DNA of 64,000 nt from a virus: the IMG/VR virus record IMGVR_UViG_3300029389_000414; one strand, written 5' to 3'. The notes below the pieces were generated by a model that had not been told where the DNA came from, ran no database searches, and saw nothing but the letters and a program-made list of their open reading frames with translations. A program made the position numbers and the translations under genes. Every line of letters starts with the position of its first letter. The first letter of the stretch is position 1. Shown here one piece after another: positions 4,382-61,431 of the stretch.

Positions 4382-4399
4382 ATGGATATCCTCCTAATT

Positions 4400-5569: not shown

Positions 5570-5793
5570 GTGGTTATCCTCCTTCGTTAATTTGGAACGA
5601 TATATGATTTCCTCCATTCTTCATAAAATTCGTTCTAATAATAGAATGGGAAATAAATGCGGAAATAAAAAAGGGGACGGGCCATCCTATGCCCTGTCCC
5701 TATATACGAAATGGAGAACAACCGCAAGATTTTTCTTGCACGATATATCTTACGCTGCCCCTTGGAAAATGGCAAACTTTTGGACAGGAAAGA

Positions 5794-33330: not shown

Positions 33331-34758
33331 TCAATTACCGAGAGGAATCGCACGCTTTATCATCATCTGATATCCCGAATTATTTTGTAAAAGTCTGCAG
33401 AACTTTGCATTAACTGTGACCAGATCTCCAGATAAGGTCCGGATGTCGAACGATCCGCTCTTACGGATCATGACCCGTCCGGAAAAATGACCTTTATATT
33501 TGTAGTTTGTGTCTTTTGGCACGTCTGCTACGACCAAATCCCCTGTCTGGAAACCAAATGCTGTTTTGGAGCGGTCCTTCCATTTGCGGATGATCACACC
33601 ACATTGATTGATCTGGCCTCGAAGTCTTGTGCCTCTTCCGGTCGCTTTTGCATACAGATAGTATCCATGTGTCCGGTCAACGAATCCGTCTTCTGGAATT
33701 TCGCCTACACATAAAGCGTCATAGTGATGTTCTTTCGGATATTTAAGTACATTCCGATTGTATTTTGTTCTTCCGCCACTGGAACACTCCAGTTCCGGAA
33801 AACGAAGATACAAATGACGCTGCGAGTATCTTCTGCTCGAATTGACCCATGCGGCATACCGGAGTCCTTTAACTGGAGTTTTTCCTTCCATCACCTGTTG
33901 TACAAATTTCTGACGTATCTGATCCAGTTCTTTCTGTTTTCCTCTTTCTTTCGGAATCCGGTCTTGCAGAATTGTCTGCCATTCTTCCAACGTATGATTA
34001 CCTTTATCCTGATTGCAGTTATGACAGGCAAGTGATGCATTTTTGAGCCTGTCAGAACCTCCGCGGCTTCTTGGGAGCATGTGTTCCCATTCTAAAATGG
34101 GATCGTTGCTCTTTCCACCGCAATACTGGCAGGTATGTCCATATTTTTCCAATAAGTATTCTTTTACTTCATAGCCATACAGGGTTCCCTGCTGATATTC
34201 GACACCTTCAATCTCCGGGTTCTCCATGAGCTGTGTATCGAACCGCACGGATTCGATACTGCAGTTTGTAATGTTGATCCAGCGGCACAGACGTCTAATC
34301 CAGGAAATGATGTTGTCAGCGGTGCTTTTGACACTTGGCGGCAGCCAGTTTTCGTCCCGCCGGCTGTCATAGGACTGACGCTGTTCTTTTGCCGTACAAC
34401 GGTTTCCCCATTTCGGCTTGCGGTATCCAGTCTCCCGGCTTCTGCGGTTCCTTCTTGCGCTACGCCTGGTATCCAGGTTCTTTTTGATCTGTTCTCCCCG
34501 ATGCTCGATCTGCATTGCATACATGAATTCATTTGTATCATCCATTACAATTGCGATACCGGTATATTTTGCTCCGGGATCGATCTTGATCCTATAACTG
34601 GAAAGCCCGGAAAGGTTTCTTGCATCGACATCTTTTAAGATAACGATAGTCGGAAAGTAACGATACAGGACTGCACGTTTTTTCTCCAGCAGGATCCGGC
34701 ATCTCCGTTCGCTCATGAAACCAAGCGGACGTTTGTTCTTGTCTAAAGTAATAACCAT
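33331..34758 (-). CDS. iscB: IscB RNA-guided nuclease (PLMP domain, split RuvC, HNH)
   Basis: NKRPLGFMSERRCRILLEKKRAV (PLMP), KIDPGAKYTGIAIV (RuvC-I), CQYCGG...EWEHMLPRSRGGSD...CHNCNQDKG (HNH). Confidence 0.85.
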   Translation of the reverse strand: MVITLDKNKRPLGFMSERRCRILLEKKRAVLYRYFPTIVILKDVDARNLSGLSSYRIKIDPGAKYTGIAIVMDDTNEFMYAMQIEHRGEQIKKNLDTRRSARRNRRSRETGYRKPKWGNRCTAKEQRQSYDSRRDENWLPPSVKSTADNIISWIRRLCRWINITNCSIESVRFDTQLMENPEIEGVEYQQGTLYGYEVKEYLLEKYGHTCQYCGGKSNDPILEWEHMLPRSRGGSDRLKNASLACHNCNQDKGNHTLEEWQTILQDRIPKERGKQKELDQIRQKFVQQVMEGKTPVKGLRYAAWVNSSRRYSQRHLYLRFPELECSSGGRTKYNRNVLKYPKEHHYDALCVGEIPEDGFVDRTHGYYLYAKATGRGTRLRGQINQCGVIIRKWKDRSKTAFGFQTGDLVVADVPKDTNYKYKGHFSGRVMIRKSGSFDIRTLSGDLVTVNAKFCRLLQNNSGYQMMIKRAIPLGN

Positions 34759-34986
34759 GTTTTTTTCCTTTCATTTGTGGCAGTTACGCCCTTGTATTGA
34801 GACTGCATTCCTGCAGCCTCTTCTCTTCGCGCGTTAGCATACTTTGTTACTGCTGAAGTACTGGCTTTCTTCTCGGCTTGCCTGTTTAACGACAGCGGCA
34901 CGGGACTTGTATTAGAGAAGCGTACAATACCGTGATCACATACTAACCCCTGGCACGGATGCGTTACATCCGGTGGCCAGCCGCTA
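34759..34986 (-). ncRNA. putative omega-RNA of IscB copy 1
   Basis: Structured GC-rich non-coding segment directly upstream of iscB. An almost identical copy sits at 58095-58346. Confidence 0.6.
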
Positions 34987-34987
34987 C

Positions 34988-35422
34988 TCAACCATACGAA
35001 TATCCGTCTTTTTCTATCAGGTCATAGGTCTGAAAGTCCTGCATCCCCTGAATTGCCTCTATCCGGTCCTTTTCTGCCTGATAAGCCGTCTGTAGCACGC
35101 TCCCTGCTGTTGTGTCTTTCGTCTCCTGAAAGAACCGCAGCAGCACAGATACCCCATCTTTACTTGAAGATGCCGTATCCTTTTCGATCTTTAATTCATT
35201 CGTATCCGGAAGGTATGTCTGAACAGAATAATCTTCATCACCGAGGGTCACTGAGGTAAGGTATTGGTATTTGGAATCCTCTTTTTTATCATCCGTATCA
35301 CCTTTATATGGTTCCAGCTCTTTCATTGTTTTTTTTCTGAGCTGTTCATGTCCAATTGACGCGCATCCGGTGAATTGAACAGAACATAAAAGAGCCAGCA
35401 AGAATATCATTATTTTTTTTCG
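34988..35422 (-). CDS. lipoprotein
   Basis: aaaggatgag RBS; MRKKIMIFLLALLCSVQFTGC signal and lipobox. Confidence 0.6.
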   Translation of the reverse strand, partial: RKKIMIFLLALLCSVQFTGCASIGHEQLRKKTMKELEPYKGDTDDKKEDSKYQYLTSVTLGDEDYSVQTYLPDTNELKIEKDTASSSKDGVSVLLRFFQETKDTTAGSVLQTAYQAEKDRIEAIQGMQDFQTYDLIEKDGYSYG

Positions 35423-35939: not shown

Positions 35940-37290
35940 ATTCCGGTTATTATCACACTAAACTGGCAGTTTTCCCAAAATCTCCGCAAGCGTATGCGTT
36001 CGGCCCGTTCCGGACCTACGATTTTATTGTTTTTTTATGTTGCTAGTAAGATTCGCAACCCTTCTGTTTTGATATTTTTTGCAGCGTTGGTATCCCGGTC
36101 ATGAACCTCACCGCAGTCCGGGCAGATCCATTCCCGTATGCGGAGGTCCCTAACTTCTGGGTTCCGGCAGCCGCAGCAATGGCAGATCTGGCTGGACGGG
36201 AAGAACTTATCTACTTTGACAAGTTTTCCGCCGCGTCCCGCCAGTTTGTAATCCAGCATATCAAGGAACATCCCGTAACCATTATCCAATGTCGCTTTCC
36301 CATTTCCGAATCCTTTATTGGACAAGGAACGCATATTTAAGTCTTCTACACAAACATAAGCATACTGCTTGGCTATCGCAGTTGACTGTTTGTGCAGATA
36401 ATCTTTTCTCTGGTTCGAGATATGCCGGTAAACCCTGGCAATCTGTTTCTGCTGTTTCTGGTAATTTCTGCTCCCGGATACTTTATGTCGCAGTTTCCGC
36501 TGTCTCTTTGCAAGTTTATTTTGTGCCATGCGATAATATCCCGGCATATTTTGACAATTGCCATCACTGTCCATAAAAAGTCCGTCAGACTTATAATCGA
36601 GTCCGATAGCCTGTTCTTCCGTCACCGGAACCAGAGATACTTGAACTTCCTCATATTCAAAAAGTATAGAAATATAATAAGTACCATCCCCATACTGAGA
36701 GATTGTAGCGGATTTGATCTTCCAGTCTTTCTCCGGCAAACGGTGAAGCACCGCTTTGACAGACCCTGCTTTTGGTATGCGGATTCTGCCATCCTCTATA
36801 CGGATCGAACTATTCTGGCAATTGGTTGTATAAGATCTGCGGCAGCGTTTCGCTGATTTGAATTTCGGAAAACCAGTCTTCTTATTACGGAAGAAATTTT
36901 TATAAGCAGTCTGCAGATGCAACTGTACATTTGCAAGTGCAAGGCTGTCTACTTCTTTCAGGTAAGGATAAGATTTCTTATACTGTGCCGGTGTCGTCTG
37001 TAACATCTTTTGTGTCTGTTGATAATATGTTATTTTATCTGCAAGCATCAGGTTCCAGATCTTCCTGCAGCAGCCAAACGTTTTGGCAAACAAGACTTTT
37101 TGCTCTGCAGAAGGGTAGATCCGGTATTTGATCGCACGATTTTGCATAAGTACTCCTTCTTTTGTATTTTGTAATGATAAGTCAATTTTCTCAAATAATC
37201 TGTTATTCTTCAAATTTGTGGACAACATAGTTATGGATTCATCCCGCAACCTATAGAGGTCGGGGAATTCTCCTTGATTTTGTTAATTTG
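35940..37290 (-). mobile_element. IS200/IS605-family TnpB-only element
   Basis: tnpB plus a structured left end. The left end is duplicated as a solo copy at 48225-48300. Confidence 0.6.
36035..37147 (-). CDS. tnpB: TnpB (OrfB) RNA-guided nuclease
   Basis: MQNRAIKYRIYPS N-terminus; RuvC-like core; C-terminal CHCCGC...CPDCG zinc finger. Start at the ATG after aaggag. Confidence 0.85.
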   Translation of the reverse strand: MQNRAIKYRIYPSAEQKVLFAKTFGCCRKIWNLMLADKITYYQQTQKMLQTTPAQYKKSYPYLKEVDSLALANVQLHLQTAYKNFFRNKKTGFPKFKSAKRCRRSYTTNCQNSSIRIEDGRIRIPKAGSVKAVLHRLPEKDWKIKSATISQYGDGTYYISILFEYEEVQVSLVPVTEEQAIGLDYKSDGLFMDSDGNCQNMPGYYRMAQNKLAKRQRKLRHKVSGSRNYQKQQKQIARVYRHISNQRKDYLHKQSTAIAKQYAYVCVEDLNMRSLSNKGFGNGKATLDNGYGMFLDMLDYKLAGRGGKLVKVDKFFPSSQICHCCGCRNPEVRDLRIREWICPDCGEVHDRDTNAAKNIKTEGLRILLAT

Positions 37291-40183: not shown

Positions 40184-40295
40184 CTTCGGTTCCTCCTTTT
40201 TTTCTTCTTATTAATAGTATGGAAAATAATTTGTGGATCCGATTATTTCTAGACAAAAAAAAGAAAGCCTGCATAAGACTTTCTAATTTACGCAA

Positions 40296-40379
40296 CGCTG
40301 CAGGCAGGATTCGAACCTGCATGCCCTTCCGGGCTGACGGTTTTCAGGACCGTGGCTCCACCATCTGAGCGACTGCAGC
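40296..40379 (-). tRNA. tRNA-Ser (anticodon TGA), long variable arm
   Basis: Manual cloverleaf fold: 7-bp acceptor, anticodon loop CCTGAAA, TTCGAAT T-loop. Position 33 is C. Confidence 0.6.
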
Positions 40380-40387
40380 ATATATGA

Positions 40388-40473
40388 CGAAGTGTGGAGG
40401 ATTCGAACCTCCGGATCCGTATCGGATCTCCGGATTAGCAATCCGGTGCAATCGGCCTCTCTGCCAACACTCC
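40388..40473 (-). tRNA. tRNA-Ser (anticodon GCT)
   Basis: Anticodon loop TTGCTAA, long variable arm, GGTTCGAAT T-arm. Confidence 0.7.
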
Positions 40474-40481
40474 ATATTTTA

Positions 40482-40553
40482 AGCTCCTGACAGGATTCGA
40501 ACCTGCAGATACACGATCCGTAGTCGTGTGCCTTATCCATTGGGCTACAGGAG
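40482..40553 (-). tRNA. tRNA-Arg (anticodon ACG)
   Basis: Anticodon stem CACGA/TCGTG with loop CTACGGA; TTCGAAT T-loop. Confidence 0.7.
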
Positions 40554-40558
40554 CATCG

Positions 40559-40631
40559 TACCGTATGCGGGACTCGAACCCGCGATTTCGCCGTGAAAAA
40601 GCGATGACTTATCCAACTTGTCGAATACGGC
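40559..40631 (-). tRNA. tRNA-Glu (anticodon TTC)
   Basis: Anticodon loop TTTTCAC; GGTTCGAGT T-arm; 7-bp acceptor with a G-U pair. Confidence 0.65.
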
Positions 40632-40635
40632 ATAG

Positions 40636-40723
40636 TCGGCAGGGAGAGATTCGGACTCTCAATGTTTACCACATGGGTCACGGTTTTACAGACCGTTTGC
40701 TTCAGCCGTTTGCATACCTACCG
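40636..40723 (-). tRNA. tRNA-Tyr (anticodon GTA), long variable arm
   Basis: Anticodon loop CTGTAAA; variable arm of ~20 nt; C1-G72 acceptor. Confidence 0.5.
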
Positions 40724-40729
40724 AGAAAG

Positions 40730-40802
40730 TGGAACGGGCAGAAATCGAATCTGCGACGCTTGGATCTTCGGCCCAACGCTCTACCAACTGAGCTACCGTT
40801 CC
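40730..40802 (-). tRNA. tRNA-Phe (anticodon GAA)
   Basis: 73 nt; D-arm TAGCTCAGTTGGTAGAGC; loop CCGAAGA with C33. Confidence 0.6.
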
Positions 40803-40818
40803 ATGTAAAATTATGAAG

Positions 40819-41040
40819 TTATATTTCTTGCCTAATGATTAGATCATCGATCTTCACGTTCCAGATATGGGAAAGAATAAGGAGGTTATCGAGGGATGGT
40901 ATAGCCTGTCCGTTCTGCCATTTACATACGGCAGCAGCGGATATTCCACATGCCTCTTGAATCTGCTTTATTGTCATTCCAGATCTTTTTCTCATCTCTT
41001 TCAGTTTCTTTCCTGTTGCATTCATATCAATTGTGATCAT
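40819..41040 (-). CDS. XRE-family HTH transcriptional regulator (73 aa) embedded in the tRNA cluster
   Basis: aggagg RBS; LKEMRKRSGMTIKQIQEACGISAAAVCKWQNGQAIPSL is a Cro/C1-type HTH. Confidence 0.7.
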   Translation of the reverse strand: MITIDMNATGKKLKEMRKRSGMTIKQIQEACGISAAAVCKWQNGQAIPSLDNLLILSHIWNVKIDDLIIRQEI

Positions 41041-41060
41041 TTGTAAAATTCCTCCTATAA

Positions 41061-41144
41061 TATGTCCGGCGGGAGTCGAACCCGCACTTCCTGGGTGAAA
41101 CCGGGGCTTAAACCCGGTGCGTCTTCCAATTTCGCCACGGACAC
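41061..41144 (-). tRNA. tRNA-Leu (anticodon TAA), long variable arm
   Basis: Anticodon stem CCGGG/CCCGG with loop TTTAAGC; GGTTCGACT T-arm. Confidence 0.65.
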
Positions 41145-41426
41145 ATAAAAAATACCGCCTGTCATGCCAGAAACATAACAGACGGTGGATAGGATTCCTT
41201 TTACCAATAGAATACATCAATGCTGACCTGTGTTATTTTCCCCATGACGAATAAGACCAAATTCTTTTTCAAAACTTGATAAACTTTCATAGCGATATTC
41301 ATTTGAGAAAAACAAATTCATCTGTCTCATGATGATTCTCCTTTCATAAAAATTTTTTCCTTCTTTGTAACTACAGTATATCACGCATTGTTATGTGTGA
41401 CAATTCAACCTGTAGTTTAATTTGAC

Positions 41427-41857
41427 CTTTTAGGGTACTACAAATTTACATGGTTCTCAAACCAGCAAAAGAGAATAAAGATGCTTCTGAACTTTTGTGT
41501 CACTACAAATTTACATGGTTCTCAAACTCGTCATACACTGTTTCTCCGATATCTTCCCTTTTGGGGTACTACAAATTTACATGGTTCTCAAACTTCCTAC
41601 TTTTCCGGGGTGTTTTGACTCTCTCTTTTGGGGTACTACAAATTTACATGGTTCTCAAACTCCTTCATCGGCTCCGTAGCCTCCACCGGACTTTTGGGGT
41701 ACTACAAATTTACATGGCTCTCAAACCTTCAACTGCACGAACCAACTGATTTTTCGCTTTTGGGGTACTACAAATTTACATGGTTCTCAAACCTCTTGAC
41801 TTGCTGGAAAGTCCCATAAATCTTTTGGGGTATTACAAATTTACATGGTTCTCAAGT
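41427..41857 (-). CRISPR. orphan CRISPR array: 7 repeats of 36 nt, 6 spacers of 29-31 nt, type II-like repeat
   Basis: Top-strand repeat CTTTTGGGGTACTACAAATTTACATGGTTCTCAAAC; its reverse complement reads GTTTGAGAACCATGTAAATTTGTAGTACCCCAAAAG. Repeats start at 41427, 41492, 41558, 41625, 41691, 41757 and 41822. Six spacers are unique. Repeats 1, 2 and 7 carry point variants. Confidence 0.8.
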
Positions 41858-43013
41858 TATCTAAATCATATAACTGATCAGTCTCTTCCTGAATCGTCGT
41901 GTGGTAGTATACGACTCCGAACTTCTGAATCTTTAATTCTCTCGCGCATTGGTACAGGTATTTGACCTGAGATTTTTCCATCCGGTCAATCATATCATGC
42001 TCTGCCCGTTCCATGATGCAGGAATTCCTGTCCTCTTCCGGTACATACTCATCCGGTTCATAGTAAAGATATTCTCTTCCGCTTTCCATGGACATGATAT
42101 CCGAAATGACAGCGCCAAATCCGCAATTACAGCCATTGCAATCCCAAAAATCGGAGAATACCTTTTCTGCGCTTTCCCCTTCCAAAATACGGTTGTAAAG
42201 TTCTATATTTTCCTTTGTGCAGCAAAATGTATCTGCATGTTTATTGAGAAAATCTGTGAATCCTTCCGGAAGTCCGTCCAAATATAGACCATAACCTGCA
42301 TGAGCATATGGGAATCTTCGATCTGTTTTGGAACCAAAGATTGCACGGAGCAGACGTACTTCCTGCTCATAGCTTTTCTTTTCTTTTACTATGGTATTTT
42401 GAATATATGGCCCTGATTCGTGTAATTTGTTCAGAATATCAGAACCGACCAGGATCATTTTTCCTTTTGCTGTACAAATATAGTAAATATTAAAGGTCGT
42501 ACAGCAGATGCTTCGATCATATTCCCAGGTAATCTCCATGACTTTGGATTCCTCGGCGCCCTCCGGCCATACCTGTATAAAGCCCTGCTCCATATCAGAT
42601 TTCCCATAATCCGTAAAATTAATTGAAACTGCCCCTCTTCCAGGAATTAGAAATTTTAAGATCTTATTCTTTAAGTCCTTCAGGTCTTCATAAATGTCCA
42701 GTCCTTCTGCTTTAAACTGAAAGAAATCGTCAATGTCACTTTCAAACTTCCGAATAACATCTTCAATATCCGGCATTTGATATCCACAGGCAACCATTAA
42801 TTCTGAAAGCGTTACGTTGGACATTTTTGCTGCGATGGTCTCTAATGTTTTCATCCTTGGACAAGATATTCCGGTATCGTTGAGCATCCGACTGATCGTT
42901 TCCTGGGCGATCCCGGTCTGTGCGGCGAATTCTTTCTGAGTCCTGGACCCAATTCCTTTGCGGAGCAATTCTTTAAATTCCTTTTCCTGGAATCCCGTAT
43001 TTTTGTTTTCCAT
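41841..43013 (-). CDS. HTH (XRE-like) domain protein with large C-terminal Cys-containing domain of unknown function
   Basis: aggagg RBS. N-terminal GSRTQKEFAAQTGIAQETISRMLN. Its start codon lies 14 nt after the stop of the beta-prime-like gene, so the two form an operon. Its 3' end overlaps the last CRISPR repeat. Confidence 0.6.
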   Translation of the reverse strand: MENKNTGFQEKEFKELLRKGIGSRTQKEFAAQTGIAQETISRMLNDTGISCPRMKTLETIAAKMSNVTLSELMVACGYQMPDIEDVIRKFESDIDDFFQFKAEGLDIYEDLKDLKNKILKFLIPGRGAVSINFTDYGKSDMEQGFIQVWPEGAEESKVMEITWEYDRSICCTTFNIYYICTAKGKMILVGSDILNKLHESGPYIQNTIVKEKKSYEQEVRLLRAIFGSKTDRRFPYAHAGYGLYLDGLPEGFTDFLNKHADTFCCTKENIELYNRILEGESAEKVFSDFWDCNGCNCGFGAVISDIMSMESGREYLYYEPDEYVPEEDRNSCIMERAEHDMIDRMEKSQVKYLYQCARELKIQKFGVVYYHTTIQEETDQLYDLDNLRTM

Positions 43014-43026
43014 GATCGTCCTCCTG

Positions 43027-44265
43027 TTAGACAGCTTCGAACCGGAGCTGTTTTTTTATATATACGTCAATTGTTTTTGCAATACCTTTTTCCAACTCCT
43101 TTACACATTCCGTGTAATATGCCAGGTTCTCCTCATCTTCTGGATGATAGCCGGCCAGTCCATCCCGGATTCCCTGGGTCAGGATTGCACTTGCTGCATA
43201 CGGAAGCGCATGAACAGCATACTGGAAGATTAGCTCCATAAACTCTTCATACATCTTATGATTTTCGTTTACATATGCCTCCACGAACGGGCGCATAAGA
43301 GATTTCAGATCTGCTTCCATTGCTTCCAGTTTTTTTGCTTCCGGGCTGTCTGCAAAATATGTTTCATCCGAAAGGGAAAGATCATATTGACGGATCTCTT
43401 CTGCCTTTTTCAGAAAAAGATTGACATCTGTGACAGATTCCGGGATCAGCATTTTCTTCTTCGAATCTTCTGTTATTGCTTCATACAATTCTTCCAGTGA
43501 ATCGTTTGGCAGGCAGGTGTACAGATCTGCACCGATAGAACCATGTGCCCCGTTACTGATCAGGCGGTCTGCATATCCCTGCAGTTCCCGTCTTTCATTT
43601 ATTAAGATCACTTCCGGACACTGGATACTTAACAGCCTCTGGTATCTCTTGATCCTTAACAGCAGTGATTCATACAGATTGTTCAGAGAACTACCTTGAT
43701 ACCTTTTTTCCGGTTCGTACCAGAAATACCGCATGCATGCCGGCATTACAGGGACAATGTTCAGAACTGCTGATTTTCTGATCTCTTCCGGAACCTGCTT
43801 CATCTCCATGATTTTTTTGACTGCTTCTGCTCCCGTCAGATAGCCGGCCTTGGAATATTTCGGGTCATCCAGGTATTCTTTTGCAGGAATGGTCTTGGAA
43901 TTGTCTGCATCCGATGAGATATATGTTCTTCCGTAAATGAGAGATTCCAATTCTTTTAATGTCATTCCAAGTTCTTTTGCCAGCACCGGTTTTTTCCCAC
44001 GGGTATACTGGATATTGACGATTGGGATCGGCAGAACAATATGTCCCATCTTCTCAATCTCGTCTGTACTGACCTTTCCCAGATTTTCCTTAGAAAGCTC
44101 CCCGAAAATTTCCGGATCTGAGATTTTTCCAGTCCTGGACTCACTTTCGATATATTCTGTTGGATTAACAACTTCCCCGTTTGACGATTTCAGGATCATT
44201 TCGTCAGAGATATCTGTCATTCCGGCCAGCTGCACTGCTTTTGTATTATACCAGGATCTTATCAT
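43027..44265 (-). CDS. truncated RNA polymerase beta-prime paralog (clamp N-terminal region incl. clamp helices, no Zn-finger, no catalytic DPBB)
   Basis: Aligns to residues ~20-340 of bacterial RpoC. DEMILKSSNGEVVNPTEYIE...ISDPEIFGE matches [20 protein letters not shown]...RDGLFCARIFGP. IEKMGHIVLP matches RERMGHIEL. VLNIVPVMP...GSSLNNLYESLLLRIKRYQRLL...PEVILINERRELQGYADRLISNG matches ILTVLPVLPP...[23 protein letters not shown]...[23 protein letters not shown]. The CxxC zinc-binding cysteines and the NADFDGD region are absent. Start at the second ATG, after GGAGGG. Confidence 0.7.
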   Translation of the reverse strand: MIRSWYNTKAVQLAGMTDISDEMILKSSNGEVVNPTEYIESESRTGKISDPEIFGELSKENLGKVSTDEIEKMGHIVLPIPIVNIQYTRGKKPVLAKELGMTLKELESLIYGRTYISSDADNSKTIPAKEYLDDPKYSKAGYLTGAEAVKKIMEMKQVPEEIRKSAVLNIVPVMPACMRYFWYEPEKRYQGSSLNNLYESLLLRIKRYQRLLSIQCPEVILINERRELQGYADRLISNGAHGSIGADLYTCLPNDSLEELYEAITEDSKKKMLIPESVTDVNLFLKKAEEIRQYDLSLSDETYFADSPEAKKLEAMEADLKSLMRPFVEAYVNENHKMYEEFMELIFQYAVHALPYAASAILTQGIRDGLAGYHPEDEENLAYYTECVKELEKGIAKTIDVYIKKQLRFEAV

Positions 44266-44539
44266 ATGTTTCCCCTCCATGTTATTGATGTGAAATTGAT
44301 ATTTGATTTATATGTTGATATTAGTATATTACAAACCGGAATGAAAAGTCAAGAAAGATTTTGATTTTTAATTGATATTTGATTTGTTTATTGATTTATA
44401 CAAGAAAAATCCCAGGTATCTGCCCGGGACTTTTCCTTGAGGAGTACTTTTCCGAAGTTTTTCCGTTACAATACCTGTTGCACAAGAAAATTCCTGAAAA
44501 AGTAAAAGTAAGAGAAACAACTGTACAGCAAAAATATCT

Positions 44540-44615
44540 GTACATATATAGTATGGTAAAATACGCAAAAAAAAGAAAGCCCCATAAAAGAGACTTCCTT
44601 TTGCATCCTGTAATG
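44540..44615 (-). repeat. partial intergenic cassette (terminator half) downstream of the Rpn gene
   Basis: aaaatacgcaaaaaaaagaaagccccataaaagagacttcc...tcctgtaatgtta. Confidence 0.55.
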
Positions 44616-45760: not shown

Positions 45761-45823
45761 ATCTTTTAACACACTGTGAGCAAGGAATCCCCCACTTCTA
45801 CAAGTGGTGGGATGAATTGCGTA

Positions 45824-47098
45824 TTATGCAGTGGTTTTTGTAATATACTGCCAATTATTATTGTGGCAAACATGTTGCAGATTCGAAATACCTACTTGTT
45901 TGTAAGATTTATTTGGCAAAGTAATGTATTGGTTATCAGAATCTTTGACATAAGCAGCGCCACCTGTAAAACCGGATATATAACCGGTCTTACCAAGTAC
46001 GCGGACCTTATCATTCAGATGATATCCACGATAGTATGGCGTGTTCTTTGAATTACGCTTTTGTGTGCGATTCGGTTCTTTTCTTCCCTTGCGTGGAGTT
46101 CCTTCGTGCAGAGAACGTTTCTTTTTACGGAACTGCCGTATAAACAGCCATTCATCCGGATTTTCCGAAATCGTTTGGACTCCACTGATAATAATGGCAT
46201 CATTATAATGTGTTTTATCCAACCCCTTTTCTTTTCGTTTCGGCGTTGTCTCAGAACCATATGTAATGGCAGCATCTGGATATTTTGCAAATATCCTCCT
46301 GCGTAAAGTATTCATAAATGGCGGTTCTTTATACTGCCTGACTTTTTTATGCTGTTCCTGCCACTTGTAGAGCATGCCGCCCTTTTTGTGATTTTTTGAT
46401 GTGTGGCAATCCGTACAGACTGTAATTAGATTGTCAGCTCTGTCTGTGCCGCCGTTACTGCGATAAATGATATGATGTGTCTGTAAAATTTTTCCCTTTG
46501 ATTTGCCACAGCATTGACAGGTATAATTATCTCTTGCAAAAACATAATATCTTTCATCAAAAAAGCCATACGTCTGTCCATGTTGATAATCAACACCATG
46601 AATCTCTGGATCGATCATTTTTGCCGTATCAAATTTCCCGACCTCTATATGAAGTGTCGGGCTTGGCACTAAGCCGCGTAATGTATCAATCCAATGAAAA
46701 GTATGGTCTAATCTGTTTTGTAAGCTGGGCGGCAGCCACTTATCCGCTTTCCTGCGATTAAGAAATCTGGGCTGTCTATATCTTGTCTTCCGATTACGCC
46801 TGCTTCTGCGATAGATACGCCTTGTATCGAGATTCGATTTCACATCCTGGCGGAGTTCTATTTCACCTTTGAATAAAACTTTACCTTCAGAAGTGATAGC
46901 CACTCCTACATGTTTTGCCCCTGTATCTATACCTACATGACAATCTTGTGTGTTTTCTCCTGTTGCATGGGTTAACTGGATTGTAAACGGATTGTATTTA
47001 TAGATGACCGCCTTACCTTCTTTGAGAAGTATTCTGGCTTTTCTTTGTGTGCATGGCATTAATGGAACACCACGCATGTTGAATACAAATACTCTCAT
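45824..47098 (-). CDS. iscB: IscB RNA-guided nuclease, second paralog
   Basis: MRVFVFNMRGVPLMPCTQRKARILLKEGKAVI (PLMP), GIDTGAKHVGVAI (RuvC-I), CQCCGKS...THHIIYRSNGGTD...CTDCH (HNH). I estimate ~35-40% identity to copy 1, by eye. Confidence 0.85.
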   Translation of the reverse strand: MRVFVFNMRGVPLMPCTQRKARILLKEGKAVIYKYNPFTIQLTHATGENTQDCHVGIDTGAKHVGVAITSEGKVLFKGEIELRQDVKSNLDTRRIYRRSRRNRKTRYRQPRFLNRRKADKWLPPSLQNRLDHTFHWIDTLRGLVPSPTLHIEVGKFDTAKMIDPEIHGVDYQHGQTYGFFDERYYVFARDNYTCQCCGKSKGKILQTHHIIYRSNGGTDRADNLITVCTDCHTSKNHKKGGMLYKWQEQHKKVRQYKEPPFMNTLRRRIFAKYPDAAITYGSETTPKRKEKGLDKTHYNDAIIISGVQTISENPDEWLFIRQFRKKKRSLHEGTPRKGRKEPNRTQKRNSKNTPYYRGYHLNDKVRVLGKTGYISGFTGGAAYVKDSDNQYITLPNKSYKQVGISNLQHVCHNNNWQYITKTTA

Positions 47099-47350
47099 AA
47101 TTTTACCTTTGATAACGACTCGCAAGTGTTATCCCTTTCTTTTGAAAGTTTGTTACCCTTCGCCAATGTTGTATCTGCTTGTCATGACCGACCTCACCAG
47201 GTTGACCGCTCCTACCTCACAGAGCTATTACAGAGCCTGCACAGAGCTATGGACTAGGATATCATCCATAGGTGTGATAACAGAAACAACGTAGTGCCCG
47301 CAGCACTTAGGCTAGTCAACTTGAGCTTTTGCAAGCTCCGACCTCTAAGG
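47099..47350 (-). ncRNA. putative omega-RNA of IscB copy 2
   Basis: GC-rich structured sequence directly upstream of iscB, with several stems (e.g. gccataggtcggggtagttgacgcc). Confidence 0.55.
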
Positions 47351-47352
47351 CA

Positions 47353-47892
47353 TCAGCCATAGGTCGGGGTAGTTGACGCCAGAATATCCAGAAACAGATC
47401 CAGGATAGCTGCATCGAACATTGTGTCTGACTGCTCTCTCATATATGCCACAGCCTTTGCTTTGCTCCACCCGTTTCGATATGGACGGTCAGAGATCAGG
47501 GCATCATAAACATCACAGATATGGATGATGCGGGAGCCTAGCGGAATATTGTCCCCGTCCAGCCCGTAATAACCGCTTCCGTCCATATTCTCATGGTGAT
47601 ACAGGATCATATTACAGACTTCCGGAACAAAAAGGTTCTTCATCATATCTGATCCATATACAGCATGTTTCTTTATCTCTGTGTATTCAGAATCAGTCAG
47701 CCGTCCTGGTTTGTCCAGGATTGAGAGCGGGATTTTGATCTTTCCGATATCATGATAAGTGGCAGCTAAGGAGATCTGGCAGATTGTTGTCGTATCCAAA
47801 TCTAAAAGATTAGCAAGCTCTGCTGAAAGATCACCCACCCTATTACTGTGTTTCATCGTATTCTCGTCGAGTTGTGTAAAAAGATTCATCAT
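47353..47892 (-). CDS. HD-GYP-type HD domain protein (stand-alone, variant GYY motif)
   Basis: ggagg RBS; HDIGKIKIP and HHENMDGSGYYG motifs. Confidence 0.7.
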   Translation of the reverse strand: MMNLFTQLDENTMKHSNRVGDLSAELANLLDLDTTTICQISLAATYHDIGKIKIPLSILDKPGRLTDSEYTEIKKHAVYGSDMMKNLFVPEVCNMILYHHENMDGSGYYGLDGDNIPLGSRIIHICDVYDALISDRPYRNGWSKAKAVAYMREQSDTMFDAAILDLFLDILASTTPTYG

Positions 47893-50865: not shown

Positions 50866-53800
50866 TTACTTTTCAGATAAATAATCCTTTCTCTTTCTGG
50901 ATGCGATCATCAGCATGATCAGTGCCGTTCCGATCAGGATTACCAGCATGTAACTTCCTGTGTTCGGAAGTGCATACCAGACGATCCGTTCATTTGTAAA
51001 TGTGACTGCATCGTTCTCACCCTTATCAATTGTCTCAATCTGGGTGGAAAGACTGCTGTTTCGTTTTACGATCCGGTCCGTCTTTTTCACGACAGTCGCC
51101 GCATCAATGCTGTAAGATGGACGATACTCACTGCCGCTCTCTGTGATCTGATACTTACTTCCGACCGGAAGTTCATGGAAGATCATCTGCTCGCCATTCT
51201 TTAAAGAAATGTTCTTTGTTGCATTTCCGCTTGCATCTGCAGTAACGTCTCCTGCTGTAGAAGAGATCACTGCATTCGCCGGAAGTCCGGTGAACTTGAC
51301 GGTAAAGCTGAATGCTTCTTTGGCATTGTAAGCACTGCCATCTGCATTGACTGTTTTCTTTGTCAATGTCAGGTCCTGTGACATCTGGAATTCATTCGTA
51401 AAGGTAACTGTCACCTTTTCTCCCTTGTCTGCTGTCTCTGTTGCAGTAGAGATCTCCTGATCCTCTTCTGTGTTTGCTCCGGATGCTGTTGCGATCTTCT
51501 GAAGTCCTGCTGCATCCGTGACTGCATAGCTGGAAGTGTATGCTCCTGCTGCTTCCGTGAACCGGTAAGTACATCCGGCCGGCAGATGCAGGAATGTAAC
51601 ATTCTCTCCCTTGCCAAGCGTAAATGTTACGGTTGCTTTTCCATCCGCATCAGACTGGAACTCTGTTTCATCAGAAAGTCCGTAATTCCAGTTCGCCCTT
51701 AAATGATCGAATACTGCTGTGAACTGGAATTTCTCCACGGCTCCGGCATCCTCCGGAAGTACTTTCTTGGATACCGTGAGGTTGACTTCATCTTCTCCAG
51801 GTTCTTCTTCTTTCAAATGCATGTTCACAAAACTTGCTTCTGCAGTCTTTCCATCTTCAATGGTTCCTGCATCTCCTGTTGTCATGATTGGACGATACAA
51901 TCCGCTCTGCTCTTCCACGACACGGTATGTCGTTCCGCTTGGAATGTCTTCGATCAGTTTGCTCTCTCCATGCTTCAGGGAGATTGTTCCAACACCATTG
52001 GTGAATGTCACTCCTGAGAGCATCATGGAGTCTTTGATCCGGCTGCCTTTCAGCGTGATCGTGAACTTGAATGCTTTGTTCTTATTTCCATTTTGAATGG
52101 TCTTCGTAATTTTCAGCTTACCGACTGTCTCATCCGGCACTTCAACTGTCTGGTCTTTGTCAGTGAGGTCGCTGTGCTGTGCTACAAGCACCTGTTTCCC
52201 GTCCACCGTTGTATAGACACTTTCGCAGACTACCAGGGTCTTGTTCTTTGCTTCGGAACTGCTGATCTCAAAGTCCAAAGTCTCTGTTCCGCTGGTCGCG
52301 GATGCCGCAAATGTCTTGGATGCTGTCACATCTTTTCCATTCTCCTGGTACGCATTTCCGGTGGCTTTATCCATCAGTGTTCCCTGGAGCGTATAAGATG
52401 TTCCTTTTGTGAGTCCGTAGTATTTGACCGTATCCCGTACTGTCTGGCTCGTATAACGGTCATTCTGGCCGGCAGTCGTCTGAATGGCTGCTGTTGTTGT
52501 GATTCCGGCAACCGTCACTGTCTGTCCTGCATCTTTCAGGTCCTTATGCTGTGCAATGACCACTCCGTCTGCATAGCAGATCTCTTCATAAACAACAAGT
52601 GTCTTACCCATGAGATTTCTTCCTTTAATTGGGATCTCAACATCAATGCTTCCATTGGTCTCATCCGGAAGGATCTCTGACTCTACGATGATGTCATTTC
52701 CGTCAGAGTCTTTAGCTGCCTTGCCTGTTGCTTTGTCCATGACCGTGGATCTTACAGTCAACGGGAGTCCTGTCTGCATGCCGGTATAACTGATCGTATC
52801 TACGATGGTCATGTCATCCTGCGCATCAATGACTTTTGTACCGTTCCGTTTATCAACAGCTGTCGTGCTTGTGATGACTGGGAAGGACAATGTCTGATAC
52901 TCGTTATCCAGTGATCTCTCAGACACGATCTCTTTTCCATTCAGGCTCAATGTCTCGTATGCCACCAGGCTGGAGGTATTCAGGTTCGCGGCATTCAGCG
53001 TGAATTCTACATCTACTTCACCGCTCTTCTCCGCCGGGGTAAAGGTCTTTGTAACGGTCATTTCTTTTCCATTTCCGTCCACGAACACTTTTCCGGTCGC
53101 TTTCTCAATGAGCTGACCGGTCAGTGTATAAGACTGTCCCGGAATCAGGCCTTCATAATAGACCGTATCCACTGCATTGACACTGGAAGAAGCTTTTACG
53201 AACTGTGTATTCGTCGCTGCGTCTACAAGCTGTGTGGTGATGCCTGGAACATTGACCAGCTGGTCTTCGTCGTCCATGTCTTCGTGGGAAGCCCATTTTT
53301 CCATGGATCCATTATCCGTGATCCGGTAAAGTGTTTCATAAACAACATATTCACCACCTGGCATACCTACACCGTTAAATGTAAGGTCTACCGTCGCACT
53401 GCCTGATGTGGCGGATGCCGCAAAGTCTTTATTTCCTGTGATCGGCTGTCCATCTCCGTCTACGGCAGCTTCTCCTGTCAGCTTGTCCATCAGGACTGCC
53501 TGCAGCTGGTATTTATATCCTGCCACTGCGCCCTTATAACTAACGGTATCTGTAATGGTTGTTTTGCTGCTGAGTGTTACCTGCTTGCTTCCAGATGCTT
53601 TATCTTTCGCAACAGTACTGATAAATGTCGTGGTCGCTGTCAGCTCACTGACCTCTTTGAACGTGCGTCCCGGATATAAGATCTCCTGTTCGAACTTGTC
53701 CTTATTAATACCTTCCTCGTTCAAGACCTGGCCGCTTTCTGTACATAATACATATTTCGAACCGTCATCACTTAAACGGTAATATCCTTCTGCCTTGCTG

Positions 53801-56800
53801 CCTTCATAGGATACGGCATTCTTTAAATGATAGATCGTATAAGGAGCAGCTTTAACCAGTTCATAGTTGCTGTCTTTGCTCGGTTCTACTTTGGTGATGT
53901 CATATTCATCTTTACCATAGGTACATTCCCTGGTACTGGAAATGACTTTACCGGTTGTCTTGTCTACGATCTTTCCTTCGATGGTATATACATTTCCAGG
54001 GATCAGCCCGATCATGTCTACTTCGTCAGATATGCCTTTGTCTGTATAAGCAACATTGTCTGAAGAGACATAAGTGTTTGTGATCACCGGGATGCTGACT
54101 GTCTGATCTTCGTTCGACAAATCTTTTTCAGCGGCCCATTCAATATAATTCTCATAGACAGAAGGGTCTGTGTAGGAGAAATAGACCTGTACATAGGAAG
54201 TTAGTTTCTGTCCTGCATATTTTTTCATGACATCTGAGGATAAGCTGTAGGTCAGTGCTGTACCATTTTCCAGTTCCTCTTTTGTGACCTGATGGCATGC
54301 GATCTCAGACTTGATCTGATTTCCGCTGTTGTCTGTGACCGGATTCCCGGACGCATCCATTAAAGTTCCTTCATACTTGATATAGTAGAAATTGATCTCA
54401 TCATAGGAAGGGAAGTTGTGCAGATCGATCTTGTCTTTCAGCGTGACTGTCTTGCCATTGGTCTGCAGGTCATGTAACCCAGTAGAGGAATCAGTAAGTT
54501 CTGTTGTGATGTTCTGGAAGCTGACTGTTTCCTGTGGATCATTCATGTCCGTGTGTGATACTAACAGGTTGTCATAATTCGGAGTCCCGTCAGATTTCAG
54601 TTCATAAATATAGGTAAAGAACACATAGTCCTTTCCCAGCATGTTTGACACATCTTTGACCGGCATGGTAATGCTTCCTGTTCCGGTGTATCCTGCTGCA
54701 GTATCGTTATACTCGATCAGTGTTCCTGTTGCCTGAAGGTCATTTCCGTTCTCATCTTTGACAAAATCTCCAGTCTCTTTATCGACCAGCTTGCTGACGA
54801 TATAGCCGGAAGTCAGGCCTTTGACATTGATATCGTCACAGAGTACGGTTGCATATTCTCCCTTATAAACACCCATATCATAATATGGCGCTTTATGATC
54901 GAACTGGATCCGGTTCGTTTCGGATTCACTGCCATAAGAAGTGGTACTGACCTCAATACTGGTATTTACGATCTTACCAAGGTCTACGACTGCAGCACTG
55001 TTCCCATTGACTGAGAAGGAACCGGTGTACATGACCATCCCCTTATTTGCCGCACTGGATACCTCTTCGATCGTGTAATCTCCGTATTCAAATGCGCCCT
55101 GATCGTCAGAGAGCTGATCCATATCCCCGAACCATACCCCGGCACCTGCCTGGTCTGAATTCGTGTCTTTTGTATTCACCAGTTTTGAAGAATCAAAGAT
55201 ACCGTTCTCATCTGTGTAGACTGTATGGCTCTCGCCTGTTCTTGTGTTCGTGATCTTGAACGGAACGTCTGCGATCGGATTGTCATTGACACCATTGACC
55301 TTGAGGAGTTTGATATCACTTCTTGCATAAGAGTCCTGCCCCTCGAAAGTCTGGCTTCCCATGAGCTTCGTAAGGTCTCCCTCATTCCTGATCTGTGCAA
55401 GGTAGACTCCGTTCTTACTGGAATTTCCCTGTGCATCTGTCATCTCCAGGTCATTCCTGTATCCTTCCGGTGCTTTCATTTCCTGGATCGTAATGGTTCC
55501 GCGAGGGATCGTAGGAATCGTTCCTGCATAATAAAAGGAATCACCGCCCACCTTATAGCTGTCTGTTAATCCAGCCACATAGACTTTTCCATTTTTCGAA
55601 GTCTTTTCTTTCGTCTCGACCACCCATGTCCTGGTCGCTTTTGATGGAAGCGTATCCTGATCATAAAAGCCTGCATAGTAGCTGACCGTGAACTGTGCCC
55701 CGGCCATGGACGTTCCGCCTTCCGGATCATCGCCGGTCAGCTTGTCTTTCTTCGTGATCTGTATTGCTGACGGATCGTTCACCGGTTCATCCGATACACT
55801 CACAACTTTTGTATCACAGTTCCCCAGATAAAAAGATCCGACGGACTGATTTAGTTCATATCCTTCCGGAGCCTGTGTTTCCTTGTAATAGTAAGTTCCT
55901 GTATCTAATGTTGCAGTACCGGTATTTCCGTTTCCATCCGTACTTAGTGTTGCGACGCGGTTCGTACAGCCTGCATCACTGTAAATGGAATACTGTGCGC
56001 CTGCCAGGGAATAACAGATGTTCCCATTGGTGATGGCAGAATTGGACGATGACTTCCGGAACTGTACCGTGGACGCATTCATGACCTGGAACGCCATTGG
56101 CTGTGCCCGTCTGTTTCCGTTTATATAACTGGTATCAAAATAATAACAGCCATATCCTGCCGGTGCAGAAGCCATCCATGTGATCTGGGTCGCTTTATTT
56201 TTGATATGGTTCTTTACAGAACTGGAAACACCATGGAATGCGTTGTTCGCTCTTCCTGTATCATGCAGTACATATAATGCATACATATACGAAAGCATGA
56301 TATGCGTATAAGCATATTCATACTGTTGGGATCCATCCCAGATCCATCCATAGCTGTTCACAAAAGAACTGTATCCAGGACCTCCGTATGCATAGTAAAA
56401 TGCTTTCCTCACGACATCATTATCGATCAGGTATCCCGTGTACCAGCCTGCCTTTGGTGTCTTCCAGACCGGATTCATACAATAGGCATATTGGTTTTCA
56501 TTGGTCGTATAGTATCTGGTCGTATAAGAACCGTACCGGACTGATGATCCCGGCACATTCAGATAAATGGATTTACTGCCTGCGATCCTTGCAGACTGAG
56601 CAGATACATTTGAGTCATCACTGCATACAGCAACTTCATTTGCACTGCCTCCACTGTTCGCTTCTATCTGTGCGATCTCTTCATCTGTAAGTTCCTCTTC
56701 AAAAGCGGCAGAACCTTCCTCATCCATCTGGTCAAGCTGTTCATCCGTGTAAGCTTCAAAAGAAGCTGTGATCTTTGCTTCACTTTCTGGCATTGTAAAG

Positions 56801-61343: not shown

Positions 61344-61431
61344 TTCTTTTCGTCCTTGTTATATTGTTGCTGATATGGAAAAACGGGAGAGGATATCCCT
61401 CCCCCGTTTAAAGGTTCATGTCATAAAGCTT

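What the first reader, a model, noticed from the sequence alone, without database searches (positions are those of the whole stretch)
41841..44265. Operon encoding a catalytically dead RNA polymerase beta-prime clamp paralog and an HTH protein
The 412-aa protein aligns convincingly to the first ~340 residues of bacterial RpoC: the zipper region, the MGHIEL segment, the lid/rudder and, most strongly, the clamp helices that dock sigma region 2 and NusG. It lacks the CxxC zinc finger and everything from the double-psi beta-barrel (NADFDGD) onward, and it carries an unrelated helical C-terminus. A stand-alone clamp-helix module like this could act as a decoy or adaptor for sigma factors, NusG or other clamp-binding factors. 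It is translationally coupled to an XRE-HTH protein with a novel Cys-containing domain, and the pair sits between an orphan CRISPR array and an Rpn nuclease in an island full of mobile elements. I know of no described family matching this architecture.
Basis: partly seen in the sequence, partly recalled or inferred. Interest (0 to 1): 0.9.

Follow-up and report, generated by a model that had tools for sequence, protein, structure and literature searches.

The report
Free-standing RNA polymerase clamp paralog cassette
A mobile element of a gut Firmicute carries a two-gene cassette whose first protein is an independent, non-catalytic copy of the clamp domain of RNA polymerase and whose second is a DNA-binding regulator; no such family has been described, and it most likely acts by mimicking the site on the polymerase where sigma or NusG factors bind.

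Summary

It is not an rpoC fragment. About 90 representatives at 50% identity exist, all about 370-450 aa. The model is confident (pLDDT 92.8, pTM 0.92). dN/dS is about 0.1-0.4 in six of seven comparisons.

In all nine independent lineages with sequence downstream, a roughly 390-aa XRE-HTH protein (gene B, 41841-43013) follows directly. No other neighbour is conserved.

The pair has its own consensus promoter, flanked by lineage-specific repeats, which suggests autoregulation by B. The clamp helices are the best-conserved segment and keep the polar residues that E. coli genetics links to sigma binding.

The most likely mechanism is mimicry of the clamp to bind sigma region 2 or a NusG-type factor. 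This is inferred, not shown. No database or paper in the library searched describes the family.

The parts
44571..44602 (-). Terminator-like hairpin plus T-run ending the upstream (Rpn-like) gene; it marks the 5' boundary of the cassette
   Evidence: 13-bp stem, T-run. The same layout, a terminator followed by a promoter, is seen upstream of A in L001, L006, L009, L010 and L011.
44323..44352 (-). Sigma-A/sigma-70-type promoter-like site, TTGACT-18-TATACT, 58 nt upstream of the gene A start
   Evidence: 10 of 12 matches. Near-consensus TTGACA/TATAxT promoters lie at the same relative place in L001, L005, L006, L009, L010, L011, L014 and L016. This is a consensus match only; the transcription start was not tested.
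44370..44385 (-). Distal copy of an exact 16-mer direct repeat, AAATCAAATATCAATT, just upstream of the -35 element; candidate operator for protein B
   Evidence: There are only two exact copies in the 64 kb, both here. Related loci carry their own repeated motifs around the promoter.
44294..44309 (-). Proximal copy of the 16-mer repeat, between the -10 element and the ribosome-binding site; candidate operator for protein B
43027..44265 (-). Gene A: 412-aa free-standing paralog of the RNAP beta' clamp domain (includes the stop codon)
43480..44208 (-). Part of A (aa 20-262) homologous to beta' residues about 20-335; the zinc-binding domain (beta' 64-92) and beta' 196-233 are deleted
43549..43692 (-). 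Clamp-helices (coiled-coil) segment of A, aa 192-239, corresponding to beta' 263-310; the best-conserved segment of the family
   Evidence: R204, R207, N223, E224, R226, Q229, D233, N238 and G239 correspond to beta' R275, R278, N294, E295, R297, Q300, D304, N309 and G310 and are conserved in 68-100% of 73 family members.
43030..43479 (-). Family-specific C-terminal helical region of A (aa 263-412); confidently modelled but poorly conserved in sequence
   Evidence: helices, pLDDT mostly above 90. (mean top-residue frequency 0.26; 2 of 150 positions at 80% or more). No Pfam or sigma similarity.
41841..43013 (-). Gene B: 390-aa protein with an N-terminal XRE-type HTH and about 310 residues of unknown fold; obligate downstream partner of A
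42789..42986 (-). HTH (XRE/Cro-C1 type) region of B, about aa 10-75
   Evidence: Pfam HTH_3 at residues 24-72, 27.6 bits against a cut-off of 23. All 14 aligned B homologs hit HTH_3.

Best explanation
The locus is a self-contained two-gene cassette carried as cargo by mobile elements of gut Firmicutes.

Gene A encodes an autonomously folding, non-catalytic paralog of the clamp domain of the RNA polymerase beta' subunit. It covers beta' residues about 20-335, without the zinc-binding domain, and is capped by about 150 family-specific helical residues. I infer that these helices replace the beta and beta' C-terminal segments that complete the clamp in the real enzyme.

Gene B encodes an XRE-type DNA-binding protein. 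It probably binds the repeated motifs that flank the cassette's own strong promoter and autoregulates the operon.

The most likely mechanism is molecular mimicry. A presents the clamp-helix surface on which sigma region 2 normally docks, with the NGN domain of NusG-family factors as the second candidate. A would thereby bind such a factor away from core polymerase, titrating it, retargeting it or sensing it. B would set the dose and possibly tether the complex to DNA.

Shown here: homology, fold, loss of the catalytic parts, family size, purifying selection, strict A-to-B linkage, a mobile and variable context, and a promoter-plus-repeat layout.

Inferred: that B binds the repeats, that A and B interact, that the clamp helices are exposed, and the identity of the ligand.
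For: (1) Homology and fold.
- Pfam PF04997 is matched above its cut-off.
- PDB beta' chains match at E about 1e-14.
- The family profile hits true RpoC at E about 1e-38.
- The AF2 model built with 73 sequences has pLDDT 92.8 and pTM 0.92.
- All top Foldseek PDB hits are beta' chains, E about 5e-13.

(2) Not catalytic and not part of a split enzyme.
- A has no Rpb1_2 or DPBB domain.
- Full-length RpoB and RpoC queries hit nothing but gene A in the window and in nine lineages of related loci.
- The invariant residues of B are hydrophobic residues, Gly, Pro, Cys or uncharged polar residues; none is acidic or basic, and none is His.

(3) A real, selected family.
- About 90 full-length representatives at 50% identity, all about 370-450 aa.
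- dN/dS is 0.10-0.42 in six of seven comparisons for A and 0.13-0.20 for B.

(4) Functional coupling.
- B lies immediately downstream of A in 9 of 9 independent lineages with sequence available.
- No other neighbour is shared by more than 3 lineages.

(5) Regulation.
- There is a terminator, then a consensus promoter flanked by two exact 16-mers that occur nowhere else in the window.
- Other lineages have different repeats at the same place.

(6) The binding surface is retained.
- The clamp helices are the most conserved segment.
- The counterparts of beta' R275 and E295, which I recall from the E. coli genetics as needed for sigma70 binding, plus R278, R297, Q300 and D304, are kept in 68-96% of members.
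- The basic rudder residues and much of the lid are lost.

(7) Precedent that an isolated clamp fragment binds these factors.
- beta' 100-309 binds sigma70 (PMC2715106).
- The recombinant Pfu clamp forms a stoichiometric complex with Spt4/5 (PMC3094117).
Against: - No interaction was tested.
- The coordinates of the model were not available, so I cannot tell whether the C-terminal helical domain or protein B covers the clamp-helix tip.
- A302, a third sigma-binding position, is variable in the family.
- The conserved polar clamp-helix residues could be kept for hairpin stability alone.
The target would therefore have to be a host or competitor protein.
- Stoichiometric titration of abundant sigma-A or NusG from an autorepressed operon is quantitatively questionable.
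- A B-like protein also exists without A (L017/L018), so B is not strictly an A-specific partner.
Confidence: 0.45

Rival explanations
1. The cassette is a toxin-antitoxin or abortive-infection type module. A would be a growth-arresting effector, for example by sequestering sigma-A or jamming the polymerase. B would be its HTH antitoxin and autorepressor, with the toxin-first gene order of HigBA. Alternatively, A would be a decoy sensor that detects phage proteins or phage sigma factors that target the host clamp. This still uses mimicry, but the biological role would be defence or addiction rather than transcription takeover.
For: - It is an autonomous two-gene cassette with its own promoter and operator-like repeats, an HTH gene second, and non-conserved neighbours.
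- It lies in a variable 23-kb cargo block next to NERD, PP2C, HD-domain and CRISPR genes.
- Phage dependence on beta' coiled-coil residues is documented for phage K (PMC11598898).
Against: - There are no PADLOC hits for A, and only weak HTH-level hits for B.
- Both proteins are much larger than typical type II TA components.
- Neighbours such as NAD-dependent ligase, NADAR, PARP/Macro and LPD1 are more typical of establishment or counter-defence regions of mobile elements.
- Toxicity could not be tested.
Confidence: 0.22
2. A and B form a heteromeric transcription regulator of the mobile element, and the clamp fold of A has been exapted as a scaffold or ligand-sensing module. It would have no remaining connection to sigma, NusG or RNA polymerase.
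For: - Strict A-B linkage and autoregulation-type promoter architecture.
- The nucleic-acid-contacting rudder and lid residues are lost, and the zinc domain is deleted.
- The operator 16-mer occurs only at the cassette's own promoter.
Against: The strongest conservation lies in the clamp helices, at positions that are universally conserved and polar in true beta'. This is not expected if only the fold were reused.
Confidence: 0.18
3. A is one subunit of a split multisubunit RNA polymerase encoded by the element, as in jumbo phages, with the catalytic parts encoded elsewhere.
For: - The fold search in BFVD finds phage and giant-virus beta'/Rpb1 proteins.
Against: - No DPBB domain or beta homolog occurs anywhere in the 64-kb window or in the flanks of nine lineages.
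- Only B is co-conserved, and it has no conserved acidic residues.
- A is closer to cellular beta' than to phage enzymes.
Confidence: 0.03
4. A is a decaying fragment (pseudogene) of the host rpoC gene.
For: It covers only the first quarter of beta'.
Against: - A is about 30% identical to any rpoC.
- The family has a fixed length in about 90 clusters at 50% identity.
- dN/dS is well below 1 in six of seven comparisons.
- It has a confident compact fold with a dedicated C-terminal domain.
- It has its own promoter and SD.
Confidence: 0.01

Closest known systems
Bacterial RNA polymerase beta' subunit (RpoC), N-terminal clamp (Pfam RNA_pol_Rpb1_1)
   Same: It is homologous in sequence and fold over beta' residues about 20-335. 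The zipper region, the MGHIxL segment, the PVxPxxxR lid base, the clamp helices with NExRxLQxxVDxLIxNG, and the rudder-base PxxSL motif are shared.
   Different: It is 412 aa rather than about 1200-1400 aa. It has no Cys4 zinc-binding domain, no DPBB/NADFDGD, and no bridge helix or trigger loop. The basic rudder residues are lost. It has a unique 150-aa helical C-terminus. It is encoded on mobile elements next to an HTH gene, not in an rpoBC operon.
Engineered recombinant archaeal clamp (rClamp, PDB 3QQC; PMC3094117)
   Different: rClamp is an artificial fusion of three polypeptide segments (B 1053-1115, A' 3-318, A'' 334-371). The protein here is a natural single gene whose C-terminal helices presumably replace the B and A'' pieces. 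Its ligand is unknown.
Isolated E. coli beta' coiled-coil fragments (residues 100-309 and 260-309) used as sigma70-binding reagents (PMC2715106; Young et al. 2001, as cited in PMC11598898)
   Same: They cover the same region as the conserved core of A (A 72-238), and they suffice to bind sigma70 in vitro.
   Different: They are laboratory fragments of the real subunit. Sigma binding by A has not been tested.
Split beta' subunits of jumbo-phage multisubunit RNAPs (AR9, phiKZ; PMC7598289) and the single-chain YonO RNAP (PMC5467207)
   Same: They are homologs of RNAP large subunits encoded by mobile elements or phages.
   Different: Those proteins are catalytic. They carry DPBB motifs and, in jumbo phages, come with the other subunit fragments. 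This family has neither.
HTH-autoregulated two-gene cassettes (acr-aca operons; toxin-first type II TA such as higBA)
   Same: The effector gene comes first and the HTH gene second, with a strong promoter bracketed by repeats. Carriage is mobile and patchy.
   Different: B is about 390 aa with a large unknown C-terminal region. The effector is a polymerase-domain paralog. No anti-CRISPR, toxin or defence activity is known, and there is no PADLOC match.
Anti-sigma factors and phage sigma or RNAP hijackers (AsiA, gp67, phiEco32 gp79; PMC12276001)
   Same: The proposed outcome is the same: interference with the sigma-core interaction.
   Different: Known examples bind sigma or the polymerase through unrelated folds. 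None is a copy of the polymerase's own docking domain.

Membership tests
RNA polymerase beta' subunit (RpoC) | Rpb1 domain 1 (clamp) homology | tested here: met
   [not shown]
RNA polymerase beta' subunit (RpoC) | Cys4 zinc-binding domain (E. coli C70, C72, C85, C88) | tested here: not met
   The segment beta' 64-92 is absent. It is replaced by a short non-conserved, Cys-free linker.
RNA polymerase beta' subunit (RpoC) | Catalytic double-psi beta-barrel with NADFDGD, plus bridge helix and trigger loop | tested here: not met
   The protein ends at 412 aa. Homology stops at beta' residue about 335. No Rpb1_2 to Rpb1_5 hit occurs in 73 members. rpoC NCBIfam scores are 71 bits against a cut-off of 963.
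Split multisubunit RNAP of jumbo phages | Companion genes for the remaining beta' and beta fragments, including the catalytic motifs | tested here: not met
   RpoB and RpoC queries hit only gene A in the window and in nine lineages of loci. Only B is co-conserved.
XRE/Cro-C1 HTH regulators (protein B) | HTH_3-type helix-turn-helix | tested here: met
   HTH_3 at 27.6 bits against a cut-off of 23. 14 of 14 homologs hit HTH_3.
XRE/Cro-C1 HTH regulators (protein B) | Binding to repeated operator sites at its own promoter | tested here: inconclusive
   Two exact 16-mers bracket the promoter and are unique in the window. Lineage-specific repeats lie at the same place elsewhere. Binding itself was not tested.
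Type II toxin-antitoxin module | Adjacent co-transcribed pair with an autoregulating DNA-binding antitoxin | tested here: inconclusive
   The layout is compatible. The sizes are atypical, and there is no PADLOC or TA family hit.
Type II toxin-antitoxin module | Toxicity of one partner, neutralised by the other | not testable with these tools
   Needs expression experiments.
acr-aca anti-defence operon | An anti-defence protein upstream of an HTH Aca that represses a strong promoter through repeats | tested here: inconclusive
   The gene order and the promoter-plus-repeat layout match. Anti-defence activity is untested. B is far larger than known Aca proteins. The adjacency to Cas9 is limited to one lineage.
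Anti-sigma factor or sigma/NusG decoy (functional class) | Direct binding of sigma region 2 or a NusG NGN domain | not testable with these tools
   There is only indirect support: the sigma-contact residues of the clamp helices are conserved, and isolated clamp fragments are known to bind these factors.

The most novel reading that the evidence does not exclude
This would be the first natural free-standing decoy of the RNA polymerase clamp. A mobile-element protein would copy the polymerase's own docking site for sigma region 2 or NusG-family factors. Under the control of a dedicated HTH partner, it would capture such a factor, either a host factor or one from a competing phage or plasmid. That would be a new principle of transcription takeover or defence, by mimicry of a core-enzyme domain.
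Probability: 0.35. Interest if true: 0.9.

Novelty: categorically new. Interest (0 to 1): 0.8.

Why it matters
All known relatives of the large RNA polymerase subunits are enzymes or parts of enzymes. A conserved, selected, autonomously folding clamp-only paralog would show that a structural domain of the core transcription machine has been released as an independent regulatory or conflict protein. This one is spread through gut Firmicute mobile elements and always travels with its own DNA-binding partner.

If it binds sigma or NusG-type factors, it would define a new class of anti-sigma or anti-NusG agent that works by mimicking the enzyme rather than the factor. It would also explain how these elements manipulate host or rival transcription. 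Finally, it would provide a natural, soluble bacterial clamp for structural and inhibitor work; until now such reagents had to be engineered (PMC3094117, PMC2715106).

Tried and rejected
Searches that found nothing or did not work:
- DNA search of the locus against GenBank phages gave no match.
- Protein search of A against PLSDB plasmids and against phages found only genuine rpoC genes, in records that look like mislabelled chromosomes. No family member was found.
- The genome-contig scan with a B-derived pattern found nothing. The second scan, with A, found a single genome, Lachnospiraceae bacterium CE91-St56.
- The third word-indexed homology search, run with the 73-sequence profile, was swamped by RpoC candidates and added only five new sequences.
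- The afdb50 fold library was unavailable.
- PADLOC, NCBIfam and PHROGs hold no family-level model. A hits only phrog_25354, a 1216-position profile of unknown function, and the rpoC equivalog models.
- No protein in the clusters carries a name other than 'helix-turn-helix domain-containing protein' for B homologs.

Ideas tested and dropped:
- Sigma or NusG genes travelling with the cassette. Phmmer with B. subtilis SigA, E. coli RpoE and NusG found nothing in the window or loci.
- B related to A. No.
- B related to any solved structure. Only noise at E of 0.03 or more.

Literature. I searched for polyvalent proteins, PF04997, clamp-helix mimics and decoys, RpoC-like proteins or paralogs, and evolution of the transcription apparatus. 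None of these searches turned up a description of such a family.

First structure model. The model from 9 sequences was poor (pLDDT 64) and was replaced by the 73-sequence model.
Full report
WHAT IS THERE

On the minus strand, two closely spaced ORFs occupy 43027-44280 and 41841-43013. I call them gene A and gene B. Homologs of A all start at MI(R/K)xW, and a GGAGGGG Shine-Dalgarno sequence precedes the ATG at 44265. Gene B (390 aa) starts 13 nt after the stop codon of A and has its own GGAGG.

GENE A IS A BETA' CLAMP HOMOLOG

- A matches Pfam RNA_pol_Rpb1_1 above the curated threshold, at 45.1 against 39.7 bits.
- It matches bacterial beta'/gamma chains of the PDB at E 4e-15 to 1e-11, in two blocks.
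- It matches the rpoC NCBIfam models, but far below their full-length cut-offs.

I aligned the family to 15 RpoC N-termini. The alignment shows the following.

- A 20-53 corresponds to beta' 20-63.
- The zinc-binding segment (beta' 64-92) is absent.
- A 72-155 corresponds to beta' 101-195.
- beta' 196-233 is absent.
- A 160-262 corresponds to beta' 234-335, which covers the lid base, the clamp helices and the rudder base.
- Homology stops just before the GKQGRFR motif that leads into the catalytic barrel.
- Residues 263-412 have no counterpart in beta'.

THE FOLD

A first AlphaFold model built from 9 sequences was poor (pLDDT 64). With 73 family sequences the model is confident and compact (pLDDT 92.8, pTM 0.92). 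This indicates a domain that folds without the rest of the polymerase.

- Foldseek against the PDB returns only beta' chains at the top (E about 5e-13, TM about 0.49 normalised to the query).
- I therefore infer that the C-terminal helices of A stand in for the beta and beta' C-terminal pieces that complete the clamp in the enzyme.
- Viral structures match only as weaker beta'/Rpb1 hits.

A REAL FAMILY, NOT A FRAGMENT

- A word-indexed search found 9 clusters at 90% identity, all 403-420 aa apart from one 235-aa fragment.
- An exhaustive profile search of 1.8 billion representatives found about 90 full-length members of about 370-450 aa (E 1e-202 to 1e-45). True RpoC proteins begin only at about 1e-38.
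- 72 of 73 aligned members hit PF04997, and none hits another RNAP domain.
- Identity to any rpoC is about 30%.
- For closely related copies, dN/dS is 0.10-0.42 for A in six of seven comparisons. The seventh pair has only 8 differences. For B, dN/dS is 0.13-0.20.

THE PARTNER, GENE B

B has an XRE-type HTH at its N-terminus (14 of 14 homologs). The remaining roughly 310 residues match no Pfam family and no solved structure. None of its invariant residues is acidic or basic, and none is His; they are hydrophobic residues, Gly, Pro, Cys and a few uncharged polar residues. This points to a binding protein rather than an enzyme.

I examined the window, contigs found by exact-protein look-up, one GTDB genome, one IMG/VR contig and 32 metagenome loci. 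Every lineage that has a full-length A and sequence downstream has a B homolog immediately after it. That is 9 of 9 independent lineages, down to about 30% identity.

All-against-all clustering of the neighbours shows that A and B are the only genes shared across lineages. One B-like gene occurs without A (L017/L018).

REGULATION

Upstream of A there is a terminator-like hairpin that closes the preceding gene (44602-44571). It is followed by a TTGACT-18-TATACT promoter-like site (44352-44323). Two exact copies of AAATCAAATATCAATT bracket that site, at 44385-44370 and 44309-44294. These are the only exact copies in the 64 kb.

Other lineages show the same architecture with their own repeats:
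- ATATCAAT-type motifs in L001, L005, L006, L010 and L014;
- four or five copies of AAAAAGTAAT in L009 and L011;
- an inverted TTATGTTAATT in L016.

This is the layout of an operon autoregulated by its HTH product. The effector-first, HTH-second order resembles acr-aca and higBA-type cassettes. Binding by B is an inference.

CONTEXT

The window is a mobile element of a gut Firmicute.

- Nearly all genes lie on one strand.
- There is a large serine recombinase at one end.
- It carries a sortase, a pilin and a 2177-aa TQ/thioester adhesin.
- It carries two IscB genes (one with a HEARO RNA) and a TnpB.
- It carries PARP-like and Macro genes.
- It carries a 7-tRNA array.

B homologs occur in Dorea amylophila, and the pair occurs in the chromosome of Lachnospiraceae bacterium CE91-St56.

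A contig with the same backbone (L012) lacks 23.3 kb that contain the cassette. In the window this block is bounded by 358-bp direct repeats that are 98.6% identical. The cassette is therefore variable cargo.

Neighbours in other lineages include NAD-dependent ligase, NADAR, LPD1, PIN7 and IS elements. These are typical of the establishment or conflict regions of mobile elements. No family member was found in PLSDB plasmids or in GenBank phages.

MECHANISM

Within the family, the clamp helices (A 192-239) are the most conserved segment: mean top-residue frequency 0.56, with 13 of 48 positions at 80% or more. The family-specific C-terminus is the least conserved: 0.26, with 2 of 150 positions.

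The conserved clamp-helix positions include the following polar residues.

| Residue in A | Counterpart in beta' | Conserved in family |
|---|---|---|
| R204 | R275 | 68% |
| R207 | R278 | 86% |
| E224 | E295 | 89% |
| R226 | R297 | 81% |
| Q229 | Q300 | 96% |
| D233 | D304 | 90% |

- From my own knowledge of the Burgess and Gross laboratory genetics, R275, E295 and A302 are needed for sigma70 binding.
- A302 is variable in this family.
- The basic rudder residues and much of the lid, which contact nucleic acid in the enzyme, are not kept.

Two experimental precedents show that an isolated clamp fragment can bind the factors that dock there. A beta' 100-309 fragment binds sigma70 (PMC2715106). 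The isolated archaeal clamp binds Spt4/5 (PMC3094117).

I therefore consider mimicry of the clamp-helix docking site the best-supported mechanism, with sigma region 2 as the first candidate ligand and NusG-family NGN domains as the second. B would set the dose by autoregulation and perhaps tether the complex to DNA.

Whether the biological role is host takeover, addiction or abortive infection, or decoy sensing of a rival's polymerase-targeting proteins cannot be decided from sequence.

RIVALS EXCLUDED OR WEAKENED

- A split element-encoded polymerase is unlikely. Full-length RpoB and RpoC queries hit only gene A in the window and in all related loci.
- No sigma-like or NusG-like gene accompanies the cassette (low sensitivity).
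- The link to CRISPR is specific to this lineage. Close relatives carry a Cas9-like gene between B and the array, and the window has lost it.

NOVELTY

Pfam, NCBIfam, PHROGs and PADLOC have no model for the family. The sources give the proteins no informative name. Eight full-text literature searches found no description of a free-standing clamp paralog.

The closest known things are the beta' subunit itself, catalytic phage and prophage homologs (YonO, jumbo-phage split RNAPs), and laboratory-made clamp fragments. The family fails the defining catalytic and zinc features of beta', and it matches no described system.

LIMITS

- No interaction, DNA binding or phenotype was tested.
- The model coordinates could not be inspected.
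- The type of mobile element (ICE, prophage or plasmid) was not settled.

Noticed in passing
window 41423-41860: This is a CRISPR array of 7 x 36-nt repeats (CTTTTGGGGTACTACAAATTTACATGGTTCTCAAAC on the + strand) with spacers of about 30 nt, and no cas gene is present in the window. Close relatives (L005, L019, L020, L028) match the window only down to 41854. They then carry about 4.9 kb with a Cas9-like ORF before the array. The Pfam Cas9 domains are on record for L005 only; the ORFs of more than 1000 aa in L019, L020 and L028 were not scanned. The window variant is therefore a cas9 deletion that fuses the last four codons of gene B to the terminal repeat.
   Followed up: partly
window 34646-35002 and 57982-58339: These are 358-bp direct repeats, 98.6% identical, that bound a 23.3-kb cargo block. 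The block holds the adhesin, NERD, PP2C and HD genes, an IscB, the Rpn-like gene, the A-B cassette, the CRISPR array, the tRNAs, RNase H, an HNH gene and a TnpB. Contig L012 has the identical backbone with a single repeat copy and no block.
   Followed up: yes
window 45770-47377: This IscB gene (RRXRR plus HNH, 433 aa) with a HEARO/omega RNA (Rfam RF02033, 122 bits, 47148-47377) is absent at exactly this position in L005 and L020. It is therefore a discrete recent insertion. A second IscB lies at 33331-34758 and a TnpB at 36035-37249.
   Followed up: partly
window 40295-41145: This is an array of seven tRNA genes (Ser x2, Arg, Glu, Tyr, Phe, Leu) inside the mobile element. The listed 133-aa HTH ORF at 40819-41220 overlaps tRNA-Leu, so the real HTH gene is probably shorter.
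   Followed up: no
window 3845-5617 and 1-1671: There is a PARP-catalytic-domain protein (with a weak WGR match) next to a weak Macro-domain match (19.5 bits, below the cut-off of 22). There is also a large serine recombinase at the window edge. Related loci carry NADAR and NAD-dependent ligase genes. Together these point to an ADP-ribose/NAD conflict theme in these elements.
   Followed up: no
window 50866-57399 and 60438-62979; L006 5113-6453: The window carries a 2177-aa surface adhesin with six TQ ester-bond domains and a thioester domain, plus a sortase and an LPXTG pilin. A related element (L006-L008) also carries its own SecY homolog just upstream of the A-B cassette.
   Followed up: no
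L017 7793-8893 and L018 5816-6916: A B-like protein (366 aa, 36% identical to B) occurs without any A gene. It is preceded by an AAA ATPase and a 133-aa ORF, which shows that the B family is not restricted to the cassette.
   Followed up: partly
[not shown]
   Followed up: partly
L005 9702-10947 and L020 5974-7254: In two assemblies gene A is broken into two or three ORFs while B is intact. L005 is a hybrid long-read assembly, so this may be sequencing error rather than real decay.
   Followed up: no
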